A stretch of 64,000 nt of DNA from a virus, in the IMG/VR virus record IMGVR_UViG_3300026518_000008, positions 29,164 through 93,163 of that record; one strand, 5' to 3'. The number at the start of each line of letters is the position of its first letter. Position 1 is the first letter of the stretch. Position numbers and translations under genes: made by a program. Shown here piece after piece: positions 20,169 to 31,183 of the stretch. The notes beneath the pieces were generated by a model. That model had not been told where the DNA came from, searched no databases, and saw nothing but the letters and a program-made list of their open reading frames with translations.

Positions 20169-20244
20169 ATTCCACACTATTTTTATATATCAACTGATGT
20201 ATTTATTTATTAATATATCATTTTTTATATCAAAGGACACATAT

Positions 20245-21309
20245 ATGTATTTAGTAAAATACTTTAAAGATGAGATAAGACGCAGATATTTTGTTGATAG
20301 TAATAACAATTATGCTGCAAATATGATAGTTGATGAGAGATGTATAGTTTCTACATTATATAGTAGAGATATGGTTCAAAGAGATCACTATGTTATATCA
20401 GAATGGTTTTCTAATAAATATGGAATTAGACAACTTCCATTCAAATTTATGCTTCAGACATTGAATATCAGTGATAAAAAACTAAAATCCCTGGTTCTTG
20501 CAGTGAAACGAAAAAGACTAGAATTTGTTTTTGCAGGATTTGGAGGAACTGGTATGAATACTGCATATTGGTTACAGAAAATTCTTGACCATACAGGAGA
20601 TGTATACTTATTTAATAGCGTACATGTTTACGATGATGACGAGATTGAATTTTCAAATCTTTTTAGATTTCCACAGGATTTATCGTCATGTACAGAGAAC
20701 AAGAAAGCATTTATGTATACTAATAAAAACTCACTTGGTAGAAAGTATTATAAAGTAGCAGATACAATTAAATTTGTAAATCCATCTATTGAATATAGAT
20801 TTGCTAATGTAGAATTATTTGAACACACAGACTATACACATAGACTTTCGTTTGCAGACGATACTATTGTGTATGGAGCACCAGATCTTGCTACTCGAAA
20901 AGATGTTTCTCTTACTAATTGTAGATTCATAGCAGCTACTCATGGGGGAAATTCTTGCTCTATGACAGTACAGCCAGACATTGATGAGAACTTACAGACA
21001 GAGGGATATGGTGTAATACACTTGAACACATTTTTCTGGAATCAACTCGCTATGGCTATTGGACTTTTAGAGTTCCTTGCGGAGGACGATATTCAACAGA
21101 TAGAGACTACTGATATTAATTCAGATGGGACTCCTGTAATGAACCTTGATGGTACTACTTCTACAATACTTGCAGATGTGTCTAAATGGGATCAGGAAGG
21201 GCAAATATTTAAGTTCAGCTTTGAGGATTTTGTTGACTCTGGTTCATTTGGTAAAGCTTCCAGAATTCTTGATTTTAATATTACTAAAGACAATGGAGGA
21301 CGAGTATGA
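20245..21309 (+). CDS. ThiF/MoeB/E1-superfamily adenylyltransferase
   Basis: FVFAGFGGTG nucleotide-binding loop; YDDDEIEFSNLFRF (DxD.vE.SNL.R); VYGAPDLATR (D...R). Confidence 0.85.
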   Translation: MYLVKYFKDEIRRRYFVDSNNNYAANMIVDERCIVSTLYSRDMVQRDHYVISEWFSNKYGIRQLPFKFMLQTLNISDKKLKSLVLAVKRKRLEFVFAGFGGTGMNTAYWLQKILDHTGDVYLFNSVHVYDDDEIEFSNLFRFPQDLSSCTENKKAFMYTNKNSLGRKYYKVADTIKFVNPSIEYRFANVELFEHTDYTHRLSFADDTIVYGAPDLATRKDVSLTNCRFIAATHGGNSCSMTVQPDIDENLQTEGYGVIHLNTFFWNQLAMAIGLLEFLAEDDIQQIETTDINSDGTPVMNLDGTTSTILADVSKWDQEGQIFKFSFEDFVDSGSFGKASRILDFNITKDNGGRV

Positions 21310-22454
21310 TATCATTTCAAAAACAAACAAGCACAATAGATCATGCTATCAAAAACACTGTTTTGGCTAAGTTAAATAGTGTTTTAGAGACATCTATGTC
21401 ACATACAAATCCAGATTTATATAATCCATCATCTAGTCTTGGCAAATCATTGTATCCAGTAGATATGACGCATGGACTTAGTACAGAAATAGGAATGTGG
21501 AGCAATTCCATGAAAGACGAGAGTTCTGTGCTTATTGATGCTATTGGTTCGGATACATTATCTTTTGGACCGGTTACACTGAGCGAGGGATTGTCATTGA
21601 TAAAAAATGAAATTACTTCTGGAACTTTCTATGGTGTAGTAGCTGTTAATAGCTTGACAAATGAACGAATAAATCCACTACATCCACTGATTGCTAAAGA
21701 GATATCTGAGAACTGGGATATTTACAAGGATCAGAAGTTTAATTTTTATATCTTTTCTGGAAATTGGAGGGGAGACCCAGATGCTGACCTTGAGTTATAC
21801 ACAAATAGTATAGTGCAGCTTTTATCAGAATACGGAGAAAGACAACTAATTTCATATGTTTCATCTACACTTGCCGTTGTTAATAATGACATAGAGATAC
21901 CTATAACATCAGATGAAAACGTTCAAGAAATATTGTATAACTACATGGACGGAAAAAGCATAGAATTAGTAGATTCTACATTATTAAAATTACCGAATGG
22001 AAATTCGCCATATTTTATTGTACCAGTGCAAATTGTTAGCGACGGAATTGCTTATCCTTACTATGGAACTTCATTGTTGCAGCAAGACATTCGCAATAGT
22101 GAGGATAGTGAAACAGAAGATCTATGGGGTACAGATTTGTCACCTATGGGATCTGCAAATATTGGAAATAATACAACTAATCCGACAGCATCTGAATTTT
22201 TCTCTGTATGTACTGGAGGACATGGCGTCGACGATTATGGTATGGCTACTATAAATCAGAGCAATCTTCAGTCTCCTATGAATTCTGAATGTTTATCTCC
22301 AGAATGGAGAGAATATGTAGCAGCTTGTCTCAACATTAGCTATGAGATATTTGACTCATTACTAGATTCCACTCCACAAAAAATACTTACTAGAGCAGAT
22401 TTTGATACTATACCAGAATGGTTAGAACATTTATCTACATTACATTTACATTAA
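21306..22454 (+). CDS. putative prokaryotic E2-like conjugating enzyme
   Basis: C-terminal SANI...SVCTG resembles the E2 (H)PNI...VCxG catalytic motif; lies between E1-like and JAB genes with an ATGA overlap. Confidence 0.5.
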   Translation: MISFQKQTSTIDHAIKNTVLAKLNSVLETSMSHTNPDLYNPSSSLGKSLYPVDMTHGLSTEIGMWSNSMKDESSVLIDAIGSDTLSFGPVTLSEGLSLIKNEITSGTFYGVVAVNSLTNERINPLHPLIAKEISENWDIYKDQKFNFYIFSGNWRGDPDADLELYTNSIVQLLSEYGERQLISYVSSTLAVVNNDIEIPITSDENVQEILYNYMDGKSIELVDSTLLKLPNGNSPYFIVPVQIVSDGIAYPYYGTSLLQQDIRNSEDSETEDLWGTDLSPMGSANIGNNTTNPTASEFFSVCTGGHGVDDYGMATINQSNLQSPMNSECLSPEWREYVAACLNISYEIFDSLLDSTPQKILTRADFDTIPEWLEHLSTLHLH

Positions 22455-22466
22455 AGGATTGTACAC

Positions 22467-23750
22467 ATGGCTTATCATATAAATACATCTAGACACAACG
22501 CTACTCCAACTCAGAAGAATGCATCAGTTTGCTCTGTACCAAAGTATGACTTTGTAGGAAAAATTCACACCACATCTACTGGTGATCTTTTTGGAGTGCT
22601 TTTACTACAGCAGGAAACTCTTGACGAGATATTCGAGCAGAGCGGACCACTTGCTGTATCGAATGAATTTCAGTTCCACTATACATCATTAGTTGGGAAA
22701 CTTCAGAACCAGGGGCAGGAGCTCTATATTAGTATTCCACTTGTATGTTACAACTACAAACAGACGGTATCTGGAGCTCACATTGGATTCAACCTTGAGG
22801 ACACTGAGACTATGTCAGATGATACTCTTGAGATCGCACAGATGAAGGCTGCAGAATTTCTTAGTACAGATACTCGTACTCAGATAGAGTCTATCTTTGG
22901 AGAACTTGATTGGCATGTTGCTACACTACAGACTATGCACAGACATCCAGGAGGTTCATCTCAGGGATTCTCAAGTACAGATCTTATGACAGATCCAGAC
23001 AGAGCTGGAATTGTATTTCCACTTAATGAGTCTATTGAGAAATCTATCAGTTTTTCATCTATTATGTATGTGCAGAATGGATCGTGTAGACTTGCTCATA
23101 CTGAGGTTCGTACTGCACTTGGTTCAGCTTCAGAGAAGAGTGGAATACTATACAGCAATGGTAGATCTATTACTATTGTTGCTGGATATGATTCTACGCC
23201 TACAGAGCTTGATACTATGTTTGGCATACCTGGATACACATCTACAGATACTGTATATTTTGATGACATGCCTACCACTACAGATATACCTCAGCAACTT
23301 ACATCTATAATGAGAGAGTCCTCTTTTAGGCCAGAGATATTTATTGATGAAAATCATTTATCCACTGAGACTACTTACTATGGGAAGCAGAGAAAACCTT
23401 TGATTAAACAATCAGAATTTACAAAATCCACAGATAGCTTTCAAAATACTAACCAGCTGAGCTTATTTAGTAGAGGACTTGAAGATGACATCGTATTTGA
23501 TCAAGATGAATTATATGAAGATTATATAGATCCATTAGATCAGGATTCATCTGGAATGTATACACAAAATCCATTTGAGCTTGATCATATGGACAGAGAG
23601 ATACTTACAGATGCACTTAGAGATGAACTTGCAGATATTACATATTGCGGAACCAAGAGTCATGTTTTCACAGAACGAGAGATTGCTCTCAAGCCTGAAC
23701 ATGAGATCTGGAGATTATCCAGAACTCACAAATTACTAAAACCACTATAG
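22467..23750 (+). CDS. JAB/MPN+ metallo-isopeptidase
   Basis: N-terminal NEF glutamate plus HRHPGGSSQGFSSTD (HxHP...FSxxD) at 22938-22982; long acidic C-terminal tail. Confidence 0.85.
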   Translation: MAYHINTSRHNATPTQKNASVCSVPKYDFVGKIHTTSTGDLFGVLLLQQETLDEIFEQSGPLAVSNEFQFHYTSLVGKLQNQGQELYISIPLVCYNYKQTVSGAHIGFNLEDTETMSDDTLEIAQMKAAEFLSTDTRTQIESIFGELDWHVATLQTMHRHPGGSSQGFSSTDLMTDPDRAGIVFPLNESIEKSISFSSIMYVQNGSCRLAHTEVRTALGSASEKSGILYSNGRSITIVAGYDSTPTELDTMFGIPGYTSTDTVYFDDMPTTTDIPQQLTSIMRESSFRPEIFIDENHLSTETTYYGKQRKPLIKQSEFTKSTDSFQNTNQLSLFSRGLEDDIVFDQDELYEDYIDPLDQDSSGMYTQNPFELDHMDREILTDALRDELADITYCGTKSHVFTEREIALKPEHEIWRLSRTHKLLKPL

Positions 23751-23760
23751 GACATATATT

Positions 23761-24651
23761 ATGGCTACAACATTTCAAACATTGTATGGTTCAGATGATT
23801 TGTTTTTTACACCAGAACACCAATTTGGTATACGACGTTCAGAATTAGCTGATGCAACATCTAATTCTGATACAACTACAGAAAATACATCTATTCCTGA
23901 CCCAATTGATACTAACCAATCAGAACCAGGTGAGATGATTCCGTATGACACTTCACGAGATATTACATCATTGATTACAGAATTTCATGATCATCATGAC
24001 AGGCTAGAAGGTGATGCATATGTATTTGATGCAGAGATGCTATCAAATACTAGACTCCAGAATTTCCTTATGACTATTGATCATAGGGCTAGACCAGAAC
24101 AGAGAAAGATTACTATGCCAGATATGAGCAGAATTATTGAGCATGGGCTATCTATGATTGTAGATGGATATGATCAACTTGAGTATAGAGACTGTTCTAA
24201 AGTATTTCATTTTAATAACGGAGATGTACTGCTCAGAGTATCTGGATTCATCAATAGAGCTACTGAAACTATTGAAATTATTCGTTATACGAAGAAATTC
24301 AAAGTAGACCGCATGATTGATGATGTCCAGGCAAGACGAGTATTTGATTATTCGTTATATGCATCAGCATTTCTACTAGCATCAAGATATCCAGCTATTG
24401 GAACTATGATTAAAACAATTCATGAGCATTTTGGTGAATTTCATATCACTGAGCATTTCCCGTATATATCCAGCAATAATACTATTGAGTCAATACTTGA
24501 GGCATATATATCTGATATCAATTCTGGAGAATTGCCACCAGAGTGCGAGGACAAATGGACCACTCGGGCTGGAGTTAATTCTCGTTGTGAGAAATATTGT
24601 TCAGTTAAAGATATTTGTCCATTTTACACTCCTACTCACGCTGGTTCTTAG
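23761..24651 (+). CDS. divergent Cas4/PD-(D/E)XK-like protein, possibly inactive
   Basis: IIEHG, VSGFIN, IIRYTK in place of the catalytic motifs; C-terminal PPEC...RCEKYCSVKDICP cysteine cluster. Confidence 0.5.
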   Translation: MATTFQTLYGSDDLFFTPEHQFGIRRSELADATSNSDTTTENTSIPDPIDTNQSEPGEMIPYDTSRDITSLITEFHDHHDRLEGDAYVFDAEMLSNTRLQNFLMTIDHRARPEQRKITMPDMSRIIEHGLSMIVDGYDQLEYRDCSKVFHFNNGDVLLRVSGFINRATETIEIIRYTKKFKVDRMIDDVQARRVFDYSLYASAFLLASRYPAIGTMIKTIHEHFGEFHITEHFPYISSNNTIESILEAYISDINSGELPPECEDKWTTRAGVNSRCEKYCSVKDICPFYTPTHAGS

Positions 24652-25151
24652 ATAGTACAGCTGGGTGTCGTTTCAGTCGACTTCTTAAGTAGAAAGTGTT
24701 CTCCCCAGCACATGTATTAATTCATTTGCGAGATAATATTCGTATCCTGCTTAGTGTGCGTGGTAGATACACAGAGCATTTTTCCATTTGGCAACTATTT
24801 ACCATTTGGAAGAACACTACAGAACCAGAGTGATGATCATCCCACAGAGAACTCATAGGAGTTTTGTTTGGGTCGATTCATATCAGTCCCTCTAACCTTA
24901 GACAGGAAGAGAAAAGAATATGCGTGTTTAGTATCAGAATTTATGCGTTAAGAAAACTGAGATGTTAATTTGTGATATTGAGTTGTAACTGCAAAACAAA
25001 AATATTAATTGGGAATATTTATATTACTAGAACGAGTCAGTGTGGCATTGCGTCTACACATACAATTCTAGTCTCCAGAAAGATGCCCAGCTGGAGTAGC
25101 GATATGAGTCTATTTATATATACTTAGTATTCGCTATATATTTTTATATAT

Positions 25152-25229
25152 GTCTCAGCTAAACCCACACCTTATTTAAACATAGGATGGATAGCTTACT
25201 GGCAGTGCAAGTCTGTCCTGAGTACACCA
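25152..25229 (+). ncRNA. degenerate tRNA-like element
   Basis: T-arm GGCAG-TGCAAGT-CTGTC, then CTGAGTAC-ACCA, partly complementary to GTCTCAG at 25152; no recognisable D or anticodon arm. Confidence 0.35.
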
Positions 25230-25454
25230 AAGTCTTAATATATAATCTATTCTTGCAGAATACAGATACAACTAAACTGATTATATTTGTGGTAGTAGTA
25301 TGCCGTGAGAATATAAAATATTGCCAATATTAATACTGCTATTAAGTTTTTAGTGTAACAACACGCCTATAACTATAGAACATGAATCATTAGCTTACAC
25401 ATTGGTAAATCGGATCGGTATTTGTGGAACCAAGATTTCCTAAGGAGTGCATCC

Positions 25455-25540
25455 TTGTAGTTAAGACACTGGTTCGAGTCCAGTATGGTTCTCTATAAAC
25501 ACTTTATGTACCATTAGCTCAGTCTGGTAGAGCACTGTTT
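25455..25540 (+). tRNA. tRNA-like halves W (3' half, then 5' half)
   Basis: T-arm ACTGG-TTCGAGT-CCAGT plus ATGGTTC (25468-25491); downstream GTACCAT-TA-GCTC-AGTCTGGTA-GAGC (25508-25533); acceptor strands pair 6 of 7; no encoded CCA. Confidence 0.35.
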
Positions 25541-25546
25541 CTATTA

Positions 25547-25706
25547 GTATAGAACGACGGTTCGAATCCGTCCGGGCCCACCATATGTGCCATTAAATTT
25601 GTATCGGTAGCATTATACGCGAGATAATTCGCAAAGGACCAGAGTTCAATTCTCTGGATGGCACACCACATTAGGGCCCGTAGCATGAGCGGTTCATGCA
25701 CTATAC
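25547..25706 (+). tRNA. permuted tRNA-like gene X (3' half 25547-25583, 5' half 25674-25706)
   Basis: Acceptor CGGGCCC-ACCA pairs 7/7 with downstream GGGCCCG; anticodon-stem strands GTATAG and CTATAC pair 6/6; anticodon not identifiable. Confidence 0.55.
25587..25668 (+). tRNA. atypical tRNA-like gene Z with 13-bp acceptor plus T helix
   Basis: GTGCCAT/ATGGCAC-ACCA; T-arm CCAGAG-TTCAATT-CTCTGG; non-canonical inner hairpins and no clear anticodon. Confidence 0.5.
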
Positions 25707-25764
25707 ATAATTTATTTTAAAAACCAGTGACTAGTATATACAATAGACTTAGCACCATAACCAA

Positions 25765-25840
25765 GTTTTAGGTCGGAAGTTCGAGTCTTCCATCGGGCGC
25801 CATTTATATGCCCGATTAGCTCAGTTGGTAGAGCAGAAAT
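25765..25840 (+). tRNA. permuted tRNA-like gene Y (3' half 25765-25802, 5' half 25810-25840)
   Basis: GTTTT-AGGTC-GGAAG-TTCGAGT-CTTCC-ATCGGGC-GCCA, 7-nt spacer, then GCCCGAT-TA-GCTC-AGTTGGTA-GAGC-A-GAAAT; acceptor pairs 7/7, anticodon stem 5/5 with two G-U pairs. Confidence 0.6.
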
Positions 25841-25852
25841 TTAAACATGAAT

Positions 25853-25895
25853 TACAGGGACAAATACGGTATATTTTGTCCCTGTACCTTTTTTT
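25853..25895 (+). terminator. rho-independent terminator closing the tRNA-like cluster
   Basis: 12-bp perfect stem TACAGGGACAAA/TTTGTCCCTGTA followed by a T run. Confidence 0.85.
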
Positions 25896-25948
25896 AGAGA
25901 ACTCACGGAGTTTTCTCAAATTAGGTACAGCACAATAAAGGAATTAGA

Positions 25949-27241
25949 ATGAGACAAGATATAGAGGAACGCATTAATGCTACTAAAGTTCCATACAAAA
26001 TATATGCAGAGTTTGTCGAAGACAAAGCTGCAGAACAATTTGCAAATTGCCTAGAGCAGGAGTCTGTAGTGCAAGGAGCTCTCATGCCAGACACACATGC
26101 CGGTTACGTTGCACCTATCGGTTCTGTACTAGCTACAAATGGTACTATTTTCCCATCTTTCGTTGGATACGACATCGGATGCGGCATGAGCTCTATCCGT
26201 ACTAATATCCAATACAAATCAGTCTCAACAGAACAACTAGAGGCTATTAAAAATCAGATTCTTAGAGATATTCCTATTGGTTTTGAGAGACATTCTAAAC
26301 CTAAGACACATATCGTAGAAAGATTTCCTATGACACCTTTTGCAAAGGACGTGTTACGCACCACTGGTTCTTATCAGTTAGGCACACTTGGCGGAGGGAA
26401 TCATTTCCTTGAAATAGGATATGACAATGACGAATATTTAAATATAGTTGTTCACTCAGGTTCGCGTGGTGTTGGACATAAAATTGCCACTAAATATATG
26501 AAAGAGGCTGCAATTCAATCAGTAGACGAATCTAGATATAGAAAAGAATTTGATGAGAAAAATAAAGCTTGGCTAAATAAAATTTTAAACAGCAAATCAT
26601 CTCCAGCTAATGACAAATTACAGGATAGATACGACAAAGCTAAAACTGAATTTACTTATCGTCGCACCAGAGCTAGAGTATCGAATATTGAGGATGCGTA
26701 TCCATTAGATAACACATCAGAACCAGGGATGGGATACATGCAGGATATGAACATGGCATTGGAATTTGCTTTAGAGAATAGAGAGCTAATGATAGGTAGA
26801 TCAGTAGCTGCTATTGCTAAAGTTCTTGGCCAGGATATTTCTACTTCTCGCTTTATCAATCGAAATCATAACCATGCAGAACTAGTAGATGGTAGATGGA
26901 TACATCGCAAGGGAGCCACTCAGGCTGCAGATGGTATGATTGGAGTTATACCAGGAAACATGGTAGATGGCTCGTTCATAGTTAGATGTAGAGGTAGCTC
27001 AGATTCTATGAATTCATCATCTCATGGAGCAGGTAGAGTTTTATCTAGACGAAAAGCCAAGGATACTCTTGACCTAGAGGAGTTTATTTCTAGCACAGCT
27101 CACCTAATAGCGAACCATTCTGATTCAAACCTAGACGAATCTCCACTTGCATACAAAAATATTTTTGATGTAATGGAACAGCAGTCAGACTTGGTTAAGA
27201 CACTAGACAGAATTGTACCAATTATAAACATTAAAGGGTGA
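25949..27241 (+). CDS. rtcB: RtcB RNA ligase
   Basis: MPDTHAG, VGYDIGCG, GTLGGGNHFLE, HSGSRG, HNHA, HRKGAT, SHGAGR, DESPLAYK, C-terminal NIKG. Confidence 0.97.
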   Translation: MRQDIEERINATKVPYKIYAEFVEDKAAEQFANCLEQESVVQGALMPDTHAGYVAPIGSVLATNGTIFPSFVGYDIGCGMSSIRTNIQYKSVSTEQLEAIKNQILRDIPIGFERHSKPKTHIVERFPMTPFAKDVLRTTGSYQLGTLGGGNHFLEIGYDNDEYLNIVVHSGSRGVGHKIATKYMKEAAIQSVDESRYRKEFDEKNKAWLNKILNSKSSPANDKLQDRYDKAKTEFTYRRTRARVSNIEDAYPLDNTSEPGMGYMQDMNMALEFALENRELMIGRSVAAIAKVLGQDISTSRFINRNHNHAELVDGRWIHRKGATQAADGMIGVIPGNMVDGSFIVRCRGSSDSMNSSSHGAGRVLSRRKAKDTLDLEEFISSTAHLIANHSDSNLDESPLAYKNIFDVMEQQSDLVKTLDRIVPIINIKG

Positions 27242-27245
27242 AATT

Positions 27246-29303
27246 ATGATAGACAACAGAATAGAAACAATTACACATACGAACGCACCAATCCAGGATT
27301 TTAGTATAGCAATGAACGCAAGCATGTTTCAGATGTTAACAAAAAATGTTTACACCAATGTTATTGCTGCAGTAATCAGAGAATGGAGCACCAATGCTAT
27401 TGACGCATGTATTGCAGCTGGAGTTTCACCACGATTTGATGTACATCTTCCTACGATAGCATCACAAGTTTTTTCAGTTAGAGATTTTGGTACTGGTCTA
27501 TCATCAGATGATGTACACGGACTGTTTTCAGCTCTTGGAGCATCTACAAAACGTGAGTCAAATCAATATAACGGTACTTTTGGAATTGGCCGTATGGCTG
27601 GACTAGCATACACTGATATGTTTACTATTGAATCATTTTTCAATGGAACATTATCTACATATGTTGTATCTATACAAGATGGAATTCCGAATATGATATC
27701 TATCAATGATACAGATACAGATCTTCCAAATGGAATGAGATTATCTATTGATGTTAGAGAGTATGATATAGATAGGTTTACTAGTGAAGCTAGAGATATA
27801 TATCAGTATTTTGACACTAGACCAGATACGAATATCCAGCTTGAATATCAAGATTATTCATCAAATCTATCAGGAGATGGATGGTACATTATTAATACAA
27901 ACGTTAGAAATTACAATCTTAATTTAGTTATGGGAAATGTTTTATATACTGTATCAACATCGCAACTTAATAAAGAAGCTAGAGATGTTCTTGAAATACA
28001 TGGCTTAGTGCTAGATGTACCTATTGGATCCGTATCTATTACTCCTGGTAGAGAATCGTTGAATCTTGATAATACTACTATTACATATTTAAACAATAGT
28101 TGCAAACATGTAATAGATCAATACGAAGAACAGTTGACTAATTTAATATGCAGTTTCGACAAAGACTTTGACAAAATTATTGCATATAGCAAATATATAA
28201 CAAGGCTTGGATGGAACTTGCAAAATAGATTTAAAAATATTAGTATAGACTACAGCACACTCTATGTTAAAAACAACTGTTTGCGTTCAATAAATATGGA
28301 AGTAGGTGTGTATTATTTTAAAAATGGATTTAAGAATATTAAATCAGTAAATGAATATATACACATAACGAATAGCACTATATTCTGCATTGCAGATACA
28401 AGAATACATATTGTTGAATCTATTAAAAAATATCTATTAGAAACAAATAATAATTTTGTAGATGTATATATAGTAAAGCCAAATAGGTGGAGTAGTGATC
28501 CAGAGGACATTAAGTCTCATGTTCAATCATCTATAGAATTATTTGATGAAATTGGAATAAAGAATTACTTTAAAACATCTGACTACTCAGTGGAGAATAT
28601 ACAACGCAAGAAGTCAGGTAAAATTTCAACTATAGATTTCATGTTTGAAAACAAATATGATACAGAACCTATATCTAAAAAAGGAGTAGAGATATTATCT
28701 ATAGATACTGGACCATTCTATTATATAGAAACTTCTGGATTTAAACCTATTAGTATGACTCCAGATGAATTATCATTGCATATGAGAGCTGCTAAATTTT
28801 ATGATAACATAAATTCTACAAATACACGAATAGTTGGTGTGCCAAAATCAGCATTACGAAATACTGTTGATGACGATAGATTCATTCCATTGGCTGGAGC
28901 ACTTGATGATATATTTTCAGAAATGACTATGCCTAAATATTTTAACGATATTGGACATGAGAATTCGTTTATCCTATATGATAACAGAATACATAGATAT
29001 ACAAATCTAAATTTGCCAGATGAACTTATTGAGTTTATTACTGAGCACAAAAAATTCTTTGAACAAAACAGACAATGTATATTACCTGCAAATGCTGTTG
29101 GGATTAAGGATAGATTTGGATGCAATGTATCATCTCCTAATTCTAAGTTGTCACTTGAGGACGTGATGGAGAAATATCCATTATTTATGTATATACTTGA
29201 TACATTCTATAGAGATGGTTTGTATTTATCTATGGAACAGATAGAAAACTATGTACAGACTATATATGAAGCAGGAGACGAAGATGAGCAAAATGACCAA
29301 TAA
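27246..29303 (+). CDS. rIIA: rIIA-like protein (GHKL ATPase N-terminus)
   Basis: IREWSTNAIDA, VRDFGTG, STKRESN...GTFGIG, PGRESL. Confidence 0.85.
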   Translation: MIDNRIETITHTNAPIQDFSIAMNASMFQMLTKNVYTNVIAAVIREWSTNAIDACIAAGVSPRFDVHLPTIASQVFSVRDFGTGLSSDDVHGLFSALGASTKRESNQYNGTFGIGRMAGLAYTDMFTIESFFNGTLSTYVVSIQDGIPNMISINDTDTDLPNGMRLSIDVREYDIDRFTSEARDIYQYFDTRPDTNIQLEYQDYSSNLSGDGWYIINTNVRNYNLNLVMGNVLYTVSTSQLNKEARDVLEIHGLVLDVPIGSVSITPGRESLNLDNTTITYLNNSCKHVIDQYEEQLTNLICSFDKDFDKIIAYSKYITRLGWNLQNRFKNISIDYSTLYVKNNCLRSINMEVGVYYFKNGFKNIKSVNEYIHITNSTIFCIADTRIHIVESIKKYLLETNNNFVDVYIVKPNRWSSDPEDIKSHVQSSIELFDEIGIKNYFKTSDYSVENIQRKKSGKISTIDFMFENKYDTEPISKKGVEILSIDTGPFYYIETSGFKPISMTPDELSLHMRAAKFYDNINSTNTRIVGVPKSALRNTVDDDRFIPLAGALDDIFSEMTMPKYFNDIGHENSFILYDNRIHRYTNLNLPDELIEFITEHKKFFEQNRQCILPANAVGIKDRFGCNVSSPNSKLSLEDVMEKYPLFMYILDTFYRDGLYLSMEQIENYVQTIYEAGDEDEQNDQ

Positions 29304-29934
29304 AATTAGGGTTAAATTTACATTATCTAGCAATAATGTTATTGTATTCATTGACGGAACTAAATTTTATTCAGATACATCACATAACAATTTCAAAAAT
29401 ATAACAGAGCTACTGTCAGACTGGAGAGAGACTAAAAAAAAAGTCAGTAAACTTAGATCATTATTTATTGTTCCAGAGGATGTATCTAGATATATTGGTA
29501 CGGAATTACAATTAGATCACCTTATGAATCTTATTTTTAGAGGAATTGTTCTTCCACAATATTTTTATAAACTTGTACTGTATATGATTGCAAATGATTT
29601 TGATATTGGTATACTCATTAGATTACTTAACAATATATGGATATCAGATGCAGACACACACATTGTGTTACAGTTTATAGATAGAAGACATATGGCAATT
29701 ACGCCAGATGGATGTTTTCTTGAAAAAACACATAATGGAAAAAATATGATTGTAGAAAAAATAAATCCATTAGATATTACACGATGTAATAGAGAAATAT
29801 TAGAAGCATCAAGCACGCAGTTTATTGCTTGTTGTGAATCATACGACGATATAGACATTTATAACAAACCATCAGTTATTATTGATGACAACTATGATAA
29901 TTTATACAAAATTTACACAGGAGATATATTATGA
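29284..29934 (+). CDS. rIIB: rIIB-like protein (short)
   Basis: Overlaps the rIIA end; ITPDGCFL and KINPLD motifs. Confidence 0.6.
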   Translation: MSKMTNKIRVKFTLSSNNVIVFIDGTKFYSDTSHNNFKNITELLSDWRETKKKVSKLRSLFIVPEDVSRYIGTELQLDHLMNLIFRGIVLPQYFYKLVLYMIANDFDIGILIRLLNNIWISDADTHIVLQFIDRRHMAITPDGCFLEKTHNGKNMIVEKINPLDITRCNREILEASSTQFIACCESYDDIDIYNKPSVIIDDNYDNLYKIYTGDIL

Positions 29935-30290
29935 TTATATACAGACACATTCGTAGAAAGAGTTGTGATTTTTTCGACACAAAAGAGTATACGATTGCAG
30001 CAGAACTTAGAGACGGAGCATACTATATCGGCATTGCTACATGTTCACCACGAGATACATATTGCAAAAAAACTGGACGAGAGATTGCTAGATCTAGACT
30101 TAAGTCATCAGAGCAGAAGATCACACTTGATGACCTCAAATTGGAGGTAGATATTTCAGAGTGCAATATATTTACACATGAGTATACCAGCAATTTCATT
30201 GGATCACTATCTATAGAGGATTTCTCTATACACCATGTCTTATCACTTGCTCATGATACATTTATTGATAACAACAGTAGTGTATTATGA
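29931..30290 (+). CDS. phage hypothetical protein
   Basis: GIATCSPRDTYCKKTGREIA.SR pattern; ATGA overlap. Confidence 0.7.
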   Translation: MIIYRHIRRKSCDFFDTKEYTIAAELRDGAYYIGIATCSPRDTYCKKTGREIARSRLKSSEQKITLDDLKLEVDISECNIFTHEYTSNFIGSLSIEDFSIHHVLSLAHDTFIDNNSSVL

Positions 30291-31183
30291 AAAAACCTAT
30301 AAACAATTATGAGACAGGAGATGGTATCATTCCAGATGGAATGATAAAACTAAGTCCTTCAAGATTTGAGAGATTCTTCTCGAAACCACATGAGTGGTTC
30401 AGAGAATTGATCATGCAGGAGGGTGGGTTCGATGGTAATTCTGGGTCCAACATTGGGAATATTATCCATGCTACTGCAGAGGCAGAGGCTACAGGTCAGA
30501 CACTTACTGATGACGAGATTCAGGAGTTCATAGACAGCTTGCCAGAGTTAGTTGACGAGAAACATCCATGGATGAATCTTGAGCATCATGTCATTAGAGC
30601 AGCTTATCCAGACATGCAGGAGCTTATTCGCGAGTTTGTAAGAGAGAATCTACCTACATCTACAGAGGGATATATCTGGAGACAGATTACTCCACGAATT
30701 GTAGTTGCTGGTTCTTACGATGCATACAGAGTGAATCCTATGACAGGAAATTATATTGTGACCGACTACAAGACTACTGGAGAGAAATTACCTCCGAAGT
30801 CAATGAGTTACTCTCACAAATTGCAGCTTTATATGTATGCTTGGATGCTTCGCAAACAGGGCATTATGGTAGACGCTATCGAAATAGTATATATTACTAG
30901 ATTCCATTCAGGGGCACCAGCTAAAATTTCAGAGAAGACAGGGAAACTTGGAAAGCCTGGAAGAGATTATCCAGCTACGCTTACACCGATTATGTACGAA
31001 TTTACAGACAGAGATATGACTTTTATATCTGACTTGATAAAACTTGGAGCTGAGTCACTTGAGTATTTCATTGATCATCCAGAGGCAGCATACATTATTT
31101 TTCGAGACTACCGTCTCAAAGGAACAGACTTCTCCAGATACTTGACAGATATAGTGGACGGCGGAGTTTACGACGATTTTTAG
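30287..31183 (+). CDS. PD-(D/E)XK exonuclease (Cas4/RecB-like)
   Basis: LSPSR, GNIIH, GSYDA, VTDYKTT, QLYMYAW. Confidence 0.85.
   Translation: MKKPINNYETGDGIIPDGMIKLSPSRFERFFSKPHEWFRELIMQEGGFDGNSGSNIGNIIHATAEAEATGQTLTDDEIQEFIDSLPELVDEKHPWMNLEHHVIRAAYPDMQELIREFVRENLPTSTEGYIWRQITPRIVVAGSYDAYRVNPMTGNYIVTDYKTTGEKLPPKSMSYSHKLQLYMYAWMLRKQGIMVDAIEIVYITRFHSGAPAKISEKTGKLGKPGRDYPATLTPIMYEFTDRDMTFISDLIKLGAESLEYFIDHPEAAYIIFRDYRLKGTDFSRYLTDIVDGGVYDDF

What the first reader, a model, noticed from the sequence alone, without database searches (positions are those of the whole stretch)
25455..27241. Permuted, daisy-chained tRNA halves immediately upstream of an RtcB RNA ligase
Seen: read linearly, these tRNA-like units have mismatched acceptor stems, but each 3' half pairs with a 5' half further downstream. 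Y: 3' half 25765-25802 (ATCGGGC-GCCA) with 5' half 25810-25840 (GCCCGAT), acceptor 7/7 and anticodon stem GAAAT/GTTTT. X: 3' half 25547-25583 (CGGGCCC-ACCA) with 5' half 25674-25706 (GGGCCCG), acceptor 7/7 and CTATAC/GTATAG 6/6. W is weaker (6/7). The order is 3'W-5'W-3'X-[Z]-5'X-3'Y-5'Y, all broken at the anticodon loop, then a terminator and rtcB. Established: permuted tRNA genes are known in some algae and archaea and mature by cleavage and ligation; RtcB joins 2',3'-cyclic phosphate to 5'-OH ends. I am not aware of phage examples. Inference: the transcript folds into tRNA bodies linked through their anticodon loops. These could be resolved and ligated by RtcB (perhaps after a host anticodon nuclease cuts), supply repair halves, or act as anticodon-less decoys.
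Basis: partly seen in the sequence, partly recalled or inferred. Interest (0 to 1): 0.9.

Follow-up and report, generated by a model that had tools for sequence, protein, structure and literature searches.

The report
Phage tRNA look-alike RNAs beside RtcB
Just upstream of a phage RNA-ligase gene lie RNAs shaped like tRNAs written back to front and lacking an anticodon. They match the tRNA-like part of known bacterial and phage "Y RNAs" rather than split tRNA genes waiting to be ligated, but here they lack the usual Ro60 partner protein and its binding site.

Summary
X (25547-25583 + 25674-25706) and Y (25765-25840) each have a T arm and a 7/7 Watson-Crick acceptor stem that only closes in 3'-half-then-5'-half order. 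Each also has an encoded NCCA and a D arm. A degenerate linear tRNA-like element, Z, sits inside X's acceptor loop. A terminator and an intact rtcB follow.

W is ambiguous. Its 3' strand pairs better with an upstream strand (7/7 with one G-U) than with the proposed downstream partner (6/7), and decayed duplicates lie upstream.

[quoted passage not shown] 2014). I found it beside Ro60/TROVE genes in about 20 phage contigs. Some copies have a built-in CCA, and one contig carries RtcB and Ro60 together.

This window fails the other Y RNA criteria. It has no Ro60 gene in 93 kb, no Ro60-binding handle and no DUF7873 partner. Nothing supports RtcB-dependent maturation into decoding tRNAs.

Best reading: anticodon-less tRNA mimics, probably cut by RNase P. 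This is a new variant of a known kind. This scan has noted similar RNAs on other DNA many times. No relatives' DNA or reads could be fetched, so conservation, expression and assembly remain untested.

The parts
24652..25366 (+). Upstream non-coding stretch of unknown nature between the 296-aa ORF and the tRNA-like array
   Evidence: Only ORFs of 51 aa or fewer. Not significantly structured: z = -1.6, 2 of 20 shuffles as stable. No Rfam hit. No Ro60-handle motifs.
25367..25415 (+). Decayed duplicate: a remnant like the start of X's 3' part (25367-81), then a 5'-half-like piece 'U5' (acceptor strand GAATCAT 25384-90, TA, degenerate D arm)
   Evidence: Direct repeats D2 and D3. GAATCAT pairs 7/7 (one G-U) with ATGGTTC 25485-91 at pair probability 0.68.
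25468..25491 (+). '3' W': T arm ACTGG-TTCGAGT-CCAGT plus acceptor 3' strand ATGGTTC, with no CCA. Its partner strand is ambiguous.
   Evidence: Sub-threshold YrlA hit 25465-25533 at 30 bits. R1 scores 36 bits.
25508..25540 (+). '5' W': GTACCAT, TA, D arm GCTCAGTCTGGTAGAGC, A, CTGTT. It pairs only 6/7 with 25485-91.
   Evidence: It shares the leader-plus-acceptor repeat TATG..TTAG with Z and Y (D1).
25547..25583 (+). X, 3' part: closing-helix strand GTATAG, 3-nt variable region, T arm GACGG-TTCGAAT-CCGTC, acceptor strand CGGGCCC, ACCA
   Evidence: 7/7 Watson-Crick with 25674-80 at pair probability about 1.0. R1 scores 17.1 bits with a 96-nt insertion.
25587..25668 (+). Z: linear tRNA-like element nested in X's acceptor loop. 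It has a 7/7 acceptor stem, a 6-bp T arm, ACCA, a degenerate D region, and a 4-bp stem with a 6-nt loop in place of an anticodon arm.
   Evidence: Not called by ARAGORN or by the Rfam tRNA model.
25674..25706 (+). X, 5' part: GGGCCCG, TA, D arm GCATGAGCGGTTCATGC, A, closing-helix strand CTATAC
25707..25764 (+). 58-nt A+T-rich spacer between X and Y, containing sigma-70-like hexamers (25716-25744)
   Evidence: The promoter-like count is no higher than in shuffles, so it is only a lead.
25765..25840 (+). Y: compact permuted tRNA body. In order: GTTTT, AGGTC, T arm, ATCGGGC, G-CCA, TTTATAT, GCCCGAT, TA, canonical D arm, A, GAAAT.
   Evidence: Acceptor 7/7 at pair probability about 1.0. YrlA scores 33.9 bits, E 4.7e-5. 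R1 scores 45.5 bits over model positions 36-111 only.
25854..25895 (+). Intrinsic terminator: 11-12-bp hairpin followed by a run of seven T
   Evidence: Sequence; folds. Missed by the simple scanner, probably because the loop is 10 nt.
25949..27241 (+). rtcB, a 430-aa RNA ligase for 3'-phosphate or 2',3'-cyclic phosphate ends with 5'-OH ends
   Evidence: Pfam RtcB 4.7e-81. PHROG tRNA splicing ligase 3.6e-104. Metal-binding and HGAGR motifs align with P. horikoshii RtcB.

Best explanation
The locus encodes a non-coding RNA (or a few processed RNAs) built from tRNA mimics of the YrlA / Y RNA type. They are not tRNA genes in pieces.

Two units are clean, X and Y. Each is a tRNA body in circularly permuted order: short closing helix, T arm, 7-bp acceptor stem, D arm, closing helix. 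Neither has an anticodon loop. X carries a third, linear and degenerate tRNA-like element (Z) inside its acceptor loop. W and the sequence upstream of it are decayed duplicates.

Shown here: the structures, their statistical support, their likeness to Ro60-linked phage Y RNAs, and the absence of Ro60, of any Ro60 handle and of DUF7873.

Inferred, processing: each acceptor stem is followed by N-CCA, a short A/U-rich linker and a G+1 preceded by U or A. Host RNase P therefore most likely cuts 5' of 25587, 25674 and 25810, and perhaps 25508. The 3' ends would then be trimmed to CCA. This would release Z and leave X and Y as nicked tRNA bodies with natural ends, as shown experimentally for M. smegmatis YrlA.

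Inferred, function: these anticodon-less bodies compete for, or tether, proteins that recognise the tRNA elbow and acceptor end. Candidates include host tRNA-targeting nucleases or other tRNA-modifying toxins. RtcB would act in parallel by resealing cleaved RNAs. RtcB is not needed to make the mimics.

Confidence is about 0.6 for the class and non-decoding nature, and about 0.3 for the decoy or competitor role specifically.
For: - Topology and stems.
- Strong structure: z = -5.3.
- Rfam YrlA is the best family hit for W and Y, covering the tRNA-like domain only.
- A covariance model (R1) built from 18 Ro60-linked phage Y RNAs (23 of 27 pairs covary) aligns Y, W and X over exactly the tRNA-like domain.
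- The same topology lies upstream of TROVE/Ro60 genes in about 20 phage loci.
- Variants with NCCA plus a linker in the acceptor loop occur in full Y RNAs in contigs that carry a TROVE gene: L100, L242, L270, L322.
- L190 carries DUF7873, Y-like RNAs, tRNAs, RtcB and Ro60 in one orientation.
- Literature: YrlA mimics tRNA, and M. smegmatis YrlA has a 7-bp acceptor stem, is cut by RNase P and gains CCA in vivo (PMC4201824). Salmonella has an rsr-yrlBA-rtcBA operon, and the YrlA tRNA-like domain has been proposed as a competitive inhibitor of an anticodon nuclease (PMC7790460).
- No canonical anticodon loop in any unit.
- rtcB looks catalytically intact and lies among rII-type genes.
Against: - No close relative's DNA could be examined, so there is no conservation or covariation evidence for this particular locus.
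- No expression or processing data.
- The defining Y RNA features are missing: Ro60 gene, Ro60-binding handle and Rfam threshold score.
- Sub-threshold YrlA and R1 hits also arise at ordinary tandem tRNA junctions, so the model scores alone prove little.
- W and the upstream copies are decayed, so the whole array could be drifting.
- The decoy role is conjecture.
Confidence: 0.6

Rival explanations
1. True permuted or split tRNA genes. The transcript folds into linked tRNA bodies, an endonuclease opens the links, and RtcB seals the anticodon loops to give functional tRNAs or spare halves for repair.
For: X and Y keep all four arms and an encoded NCCA. Joining their halves in silico gives ARAGORN tRNA calls at every register (24 of 24), whereas the linear reading gives none. 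rtcB lies 54 nt beyond the terminator.
Against: - Ro60-linked Y RNA modules pass the same joining test, many at 24 of 24, so the test does not discriminate.
- No flank gives a canonical loop with U33 and a purine at 37.
- The flanks of Y form a 4x4 internal loop, not a bulge-helix-bulge motif (by inspection).
- No tRNA-splicing endonuclease in 93 kb.
- Y's anticodon-like stem has pair probability of about 0.
- The nearest RtcB homologues lack any such array.
- The same topology in other phages is sealed by tetraloops and sits beside Ro60 without RtcB.
Confidence: 0.07
2. Non-functional debris. Tandemly duplicated tRNA genes lost their outer halves, so the 3' half of one copy and the 5' half of the next are complementary by descent, not by selection.
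For: - The encoded CCA, short spacer and next 5' end look exactly like a tandem tRNA gene junction.
- There is clear segmental duplication and decay: repeats D1-D3, a truncated copy at 25367-25415, an ambiguous W and a degenerate Z.
- No relatives are available to show conservation.
Against: - All helices of X, Y and Z are intact, including the T arms, and Y keeps the D-arm tertiary positions, while neighbouring copies have decayed.
- The same permuted design occurs at least twice in a row and ends at a terminator.
- This topology is a recurrent, covarying RNA class in many unrelated phages.
Confidence: 0.2
3. Genuine Y RNAs that bind a Ro60/Rsr protein, supplied by the host or by the unsampled 15% of the phage genome, through a divergent binding site.
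For: The tRNA-like domain is as in Ro60-linked Y RNAs. The genome record is estimated to be 85% complete. L190 holds a tRNA-like-only RNA (1322-1397) beside RNAs that carry the handle, RtcB and Ro60.
Against: - No TROVE match in 93 kb.
- No GNCGAA-type, GGYGUAG..UUGUUCC-type or ACAGCAA-type handle anywhere in 24652-25900.
- A hairpin at 24657-24716 that looked handle-like by eye scores only 3.2 bits.
Confidence: 0.1
4. Assembly chimera of tRNA genes from a metagenome.
For: The record is an uncultured-virus contig, and the reads could not be inspected.
Against: A chimera would have to create two perfect permuted units, a nested element and a terminator, all within one orientation-consistent 450-nt stretch. 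Comparable units also exist in many independent assemblies.
Confidence: 0.03

Closest known systems
YrlA-type bacterial and phage Y RNAs (Rfam RF02553; Chen et al. 2014, PMC4201824)
   Same: A circularly permuted tRNA-like domain in the order T arm, closed acceptor-like stem, D arm, held by a short helix where the anticodon arm would be. It is non-decoding, and family members are already reported in 22 phages.
   Different: No Ro60 gene within 4 kb or anywhere in the 93-kb record. No Ro60-binding motif. Scores are 30-34 bits against a gathering score of 69. There are several units in one array, an encoded NCCA, and a tRNA-like element nested in the acceptor loop.
Mycobacterium smegmatis YrlA (PMC4201824)
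   Same: A 7-bp acceptor stem that makes the RNA an RNase P substrate. The RNA exists in vivo as two pieces, one ending in CCA.
   Different: There the CCA is added after transcription and the RNA binds Rsr. Here CCA is encoded, and neither Rsr nor its site is present.
Salmonella rsr-yrlBA-rtcBA RNA repair operon (Hughes et al. 2020, PMC7790460)
   Same: tRNA-mimic RNAs encoded directly upstream of rtcB on the same strand. A decoy role against an anticodon nuclease has been proposed for the tRNA-like domain.
   Different: No rsr, rtcA or rtcR here. The context is a phage locus (rIIA/rIIB-like genes downstream), and a terminator separates the RNAs from rtcB.
Permuted tRNA genes of Cyanidioschyzon merolae and some archaea
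   Same: The 3' half is encoded upstream of the 5' half, with the acceptor ends joined by a short linker that RNase P and 3' processing can open.
   Different: Those genes rebuild a real anticodon loop. They do so through a bulge-helix-bulge motif, a splicing endonuclease and a ligase. Here there is no definable anticodon loop, no such motif and no endonuclease gene.
Other phage permuted tRNA mimics noted earlier by this scan (DUF7873-linked double mimic; Ro60-like RNAs with an ACAGCAA handle; stand-alone CCA-type mimic)
   Same: A permuted tRNA body, often inside phage tRNA clusters and sometimes with a built-in CCA. I saw such units independently in L236, L237, L245, L274 and L190.
   Different: This genome has no DUF7873 gene and no ACAGCAA handle. 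The upstream 296-aa protein has only three homologues in 5.8 billion proteins.

Membership tests
YrlA / Y RNA (RF02553) | tRNA-like domain in the order T arm, closed acceptor-like stem, D arm | tested here: met
   X and Y close 7/7, with T and D arms at tRNA spacing. Aligned by the Rfam YrlA model and by my model R1.
YrlA / Y RNA (RF02553) | Score at or above the Rfam gathering threshold (69 bits) | tested here: not met
   33.9 and 30 bits, over model positions 23-86 only.
YrlA / Y RNA (RF02553) | Ro60-binding module: GNCGAAN0-1G motif near the 5' end, or in phage relatives GGYGUAG...UUGUUCC | tested here: not met
   No motif in 24652-25900. R1 matches only positions 36-111. nhmmer with HMMs of the 5' and 3' handles found nothing in 93 kb.
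YrlA / Y RNA (RF02553) | Ro60/TROVE gene within about 4 kb on the same strand | tested here: not met
   No TROVE match in the whole 93-kb record by profile or tblastn. The record is estimated 85% complete, and the host is unknown.
YrlA / Y RNA (RF02553) | Physical binding to Ro60/Rsr | not testable with these tools
   Needs co-immunoprecipitation.
Permuted tRNA genes (algal/archaeal type) | 3' half upstream of the 5' half, with complementary acceptor strands | tested here: met
   X and Y. W is ambiguous.
Permuted tRNA genes (algal/archaeal type) | Joining restores a canonical anticodon arm, via a bulge-helix-bulge junction and a splicing endonuclease | tested here: not met
   No flank gives U33 and a purine at 37. 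Y's stem has pair probability of about 0. No tRNA_int_endo gene. The ARAGORN joining test does not discriminate.
Two-piece (permuted) tmRNA | tRNA-like domain plus a tag reading frame, at family score | tested here: not met
   tmRNA_permuted scores 23 bits against 47. ARAGORN finds none at default settings, and only implausible tags at relaxed settings.
DUF7873-associated double tRNA-mimic RNA (class noted earlier by this scan) | DUF7873 gene directly upstream of the RNA | tested here: not met
   No DUF7873 in the genome. The upstream protein is unrelated to it. L190 does have DUF7873.
Ro60-like partner RNAs with a stem-NN-ACAGCAA handle (class noted earlier by this scan) | ACAGCAA handle upstream of the tRNA-like part | tested here: not met
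   No ACAGCA, CAGCAA or AGCAA in 24652-25900 on the + strand. ACAGCAA is visible in L236 and L237, and a TCAGCAA variant in L245.
RtcB RNA ligase | RtcB domain with metal-binding residues and the HGAGR guanylylation motif | tested here: met
   Pfam 4.7e-81. The alignment to PH1602 keeps MPDxHxGY, GYDIGCG, GNHF, HSGSRGxGH and SSHGAGR.

The most novel reading that the evidence does not exclude
X and Y are working split tRNAs. After RNase P opens the acceptor ends, a host or phage nuclease cuts the inter-unit links. RtcB then seals the anticodon loops, producing decoding tRNAs or ready-made replacement halves for tRNAs cut by host anticodon nucleases. This would be a bacterial-virus counterpart of permuted tRNA gene maturation.
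Probability: 0.06. Interest if true: 0.9.

Novelty: new variant of a known kind. Interest (0 to 1): 0.45.

Why it matters
What the tRNA-like domain of bacterial Y RNAs does has been an open question since 2014. Here that domain stands alone, without Ro60 or its binding site, multiplied and next to an RNA-repair ligase in a phage. That suggests the domain has a job of its own, and it offers a small, testable system: RNase P processing, protein partners, and protection against tRNA-targeting defences.

The result also warns annotators. Such units look like broken or permuted tRNAs and escape tRNA finders and Rfam thresholds.

Tried and rejected
- Relatives of the locus:
  - blastn of the region against phage records gave no match.
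  - Both flanking proteins gave no related viral loci, and the upstream 296-aa protein gave no match in phage records either.
  - An exact-acceptor pattern gave none.
- RtcB-anchored comparison: 160 viral and metagenome loci, best 60% identity. None shares the array, and only L190 has modules.
- A hairpin at 24657-24716 looked by eye like a mini Y RNA handle. I rejected it: 3.2 bits, E 1.8, and no nhmmer hit.
- Covariance-model scores as proof of class: rejected, because tandem tRNAs score equally well.
- The joined-halves ARAGORN test as proof of true tRNAs: rejected, because Ro60-linked Y RNAs also pass.
- Permuted tmRNA: rejected.
- DUF7873 partner, ACAGCAA handle, splicing endonuclease and CCA-adding enzyme: all absent.
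- Burroughs and Aravind 2016 could not be read because it is not held.
Full report
**What is there**

The window is part of a 93,163-bp uncultured-virus record estimated 85% complete. Between a 296-aa ORF of unknown function (23761-24651) and rtcB (25949-27241; Pfam RtcB 4.7e-81) lies 1.3 kb with no ORF longer than 60 aa, and none above 51 aa on the + strand. ARAGORN and Rfam at gathering thresholds find nothing in the whole window. The last 480 nt (25421-25897) are strongly structured: z = -5.3, with 0 of 100 shuffles as stable. The first 770 nt are not: z = -1.6.

**Checking the observation**

- Y (25765-25840) is a compact, near-perfect tRNA body in permuted order. It reads GTTTT, AGGTC, T arm, ATCGGGC, G-CCA, the 7-nt linker TTTATAT, GCCCGAT, TA, a canonical D arm, A, GAAAT.
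- X is split around a nested element. Its 3' part is GTATAG, T arm, CGGGCCC and ACCA (25547-83). Z follows (25587-25668). Its 5' part is GGGCCCG, TA, D arm, A and CTATAC (25674-25706).
- In the thermodynamic ensemble the X, Y and Z acceptor helices have pair probability of about 1.0.
- A 12-bp hairpin with a seven-U tail (25854-95) follows, and then rtcB.

Chance can be judged empirically.
- Among 140 viral sites of the form T loop-NCCA-linker-D arm, acceptor complementarity peaks at 3 of 7.
- A separate group of ten sites reaches 7 of 7. Of the nine distinct sites among them, none is a tandem duplicate of a called tRNA; in one, L334, the D arm belongs to a called tRNA-Ala.
- About 0.9 Mb of other RtcB loci yielded only one comparable module.

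Three caveats apply.
- Y's 'anticodon stem' is negligible thermodynamically.
- X's stem (0.3) competes with a local hairpin (0.4).
- W is not a secure unit. Its 3' strand ATGGTTC pairs 7/7 (one G-U) with an upstream strand GAATCAT (25384-90) at probability 0.68. The proposed permuted pairing reaches only 0.15.

Direct repeats show that 25367-25415 is a truncated duplicate of the X-3'/Z-5' junction. They also show that the W, Z and Y 5' halves share the leader TAT|G. The array therefore has a history of segmental duplication and decay. X with Z nested in it, and Y, are the intact parts.

**What it is**

A permissive Rfam scan gave YrlA (Y RNA-like, RF02553) as the best family for Y (33.9 bits, E 4.7e-5) and W (30 bits). 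The hits cover only the tRNA-like part of the model.

YrlA RNAs are bacterial and phage partners of Ro60/Rsr. Their effector domain is a tRNA mimic laid out as T arm, closed 'acceptor' stem and D arm. The M. smegmatis RNA has a 7-bp acceptor stem, is cut by RNase P and receives CCA in vivo (PMC4201824).

To test the link, I scanned viral contigs for the T loop-CCA-linker-D arm pattern. Of the first 37 hits, 36 were ordinary tandem tRNAs with 5 of 7 pairs or fewer. One, L100, was a 7/7 unit with GCCA and a 13-nt linker. It lies 800 nt upstream of a TROVE/Ro60 gene, with two more such modules beside it.

Thirty-six phage Ro60 loci then gave about 20 modules of this topology, all on the Ro60 strand. 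Most have the acceptor stem sealed by a tetraloop. Eighteen of them align into a family with a conserved handle (GGYGUAG...GUUACUUC...UUGUUCC), and 23 of 27 pairs covary.

The model built from that family (R1) hits Y at 45.5 bits, W at 36 bits and X at 17.1 bits with a 96-nt insertion. The matches cover only model positions 36-111, the tRNA-like domain.

The handle is absent.
- No GNCGAA-type, GGYGUAG-type, UUGUUCC-type or ACAGCAA-type motif occurs in 24652-25900.
- HMMs of the two handle halves find nothing in the genome.
- No TROVE gene exists in the 93 kb.

Model scores must be read with care. Tandem tRNA junctions score as high, and sub-threshold YrlA hits ring in 9 of 14 control genomes. 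The class assignment therefore rests on acceptor closure plus the absence of the missing halves, not on the bit scores.

**Relation to RtcB**

RtcB is common in phages (701 phage records) and often sits near tRNA clusters; 16 of 42 loci had tRNAs within 3 kb. Of 160 RtcB loci, only L190 has Ro60 nearby. That metagenome contig carries DUF7873, Y-like RNAs, tRNAs, RtcB and Ro60 in one orientation. One of its RNAs matches R1 over the tRNA-like domain only, as in this window.

The nearest RtcB homologues (L166 at 60%, L001 at 56%, L068 at 53%) have protein genes, not tRNA-like RNAs, upstream. Adjacency is thus consistent with a shared theme (tRNA and RNA repair, as in Salmonella rsr-yrlBA-rtcBA; PMC7790460) but is not shown to be obligatory. 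The window's RtcB keeps all catalytic motifs and is followed by rIIA/rIIB-like genes.

**Testing the split-tRNA idea**

Joining the halves in silico makes ARAGORN call a tRNA for X and Y at every register (24 of 24) and never for W. Ro60-linked Y RNA modules pass the same test, many at 24 of 24, so the test cannot separate true permuted tRNAs from mimics.

Several points count against maturation into decoding tRNAs.
- No flank provides a canonical anticodon loop.
- Z has a 4-bp stem with a 6-nt loop in place of an anticodon arm.
- Y's flanks form a symmetric internal loop rather than a bulge-helix-bulge.
- No splicing endonuclease or CCA-adding enzyme is encoded.
- The phage has two ordinary tRNAs elsewhere, on the other strand.

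**Most likely mechanism**

What is shown is a set of anticodon-less tRNA bodies with intact elbow and acceptor features.

What is inferred is processing by the host's tRNA machinery. The N-CCA, A/U linker and G+1 junctions are textbook RNase P and 3'-trimming sites. The primary transcript would therefore probably be cut 5' of 25587, 25674 and 25810. That would release Z and leave X and Y as nicked two-piece bodies, as seen for M. smegmatis YrlA.

The function is also inferred: competition for, or tethering of, tRNA-binding factors in the RNA-damage conflict in which RtcB works. This echoes the decoy proposal of Hughes et al. 2020. None of the acceptor stems shows an anticodon-independent identity feature such as G3:U70 or a long variable arm. 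Charging therefore seems unlikely, though this is inference only.

**Earlier notes of this scan**

This scan has recorded similar RNAs more than 200 times on other DNA. The classes are DUF7873-linked, ACAGCAA-handle-linked, stand-alone CCA-type and tRNA-in-tRNA. I tested the transferable claims here.
- DUF7873 is absent.
- The ACAGCAA handle is absent.
- The upstream protein is nearly an orphan, with only three homologues.

This locus therefore belongs to the bare, partner-less end of that spectrum.

**Limits**

As a result, assembly, expression and conservation in the one known close relative (P0001, 96% identical) remain untested.

**Verdict**

The locus is a new variant of a known kind and is of moderate interest.

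Noticed in passing
window 24846-24868 and 25897-25918: A roughly 20-nt direct repeat, AGAGAACTCA(TA/C)GGAGTTTT, which is itself a small hairpin. It occurs only twice in the 93-kb genome (0.03 expected in the window) and brackets the non-coding region plus the tRNA-like array. It could be a pair of regulatory hairpins or the scar of an inserted cassette.
   Followed up: partly
L100:5700-5870: A run of truncated tRNA-like pieces (T arm plus acceptor strand plus CCA or CA), some pairing in permuted or nested order. They lie between a 22-tRNA array and the Ro60-linked Y RNAs of this phage contig.
   Followed up: no
L190:329-5635: A metagenome contig with DUF7873, three Y-like RNAs (one full, one tRNA-like only, one handle-only mini RNA at 1715-1788), tRNAs, RtcB and Ro60, all in one orientation, with a NADAR gene downstream. 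This looks like a compact phage-type RNA-repair island.
   Followed up: partly
L236, L237/L273, L245, L274 (positions): Permuted tRNA mimics with GCCA plus a linker in viral contigs that show no TROVE or RtcB. L274 and L236 lie next to called tRNA genes. L236 and L237 show an ACAGCAA motif and L245 a TCAGCAA variant about 30 nt upstream of the T arm. All four share AAGCCG before the T arm.
   Followed up: partly
window 20197-23750: Three tightly linked ORFs with no Pfam or PHROG match in my scans. First-stage notes call them E1-like, E2-like and JAB-like. I did not examine them.
   Followed up: no
window 27246-29934: rIIA-like (685 aa, PHROG 8.6e-94) and rIIB-like (227 aa) genes directly downstream of rtcB, followed by a PD-(D/E)XK exonuclease gene at 30287-31183.
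   Followed up: no
genome C1:26865-27027 (minus strand; outside the window): The phage's only canonical tRNAs, Gln(UUG) and Ser(GCU), sit in tandem on the opposite strand. Their junction gives a false-positive hit with the Y RNA model.
   Followed up: yes
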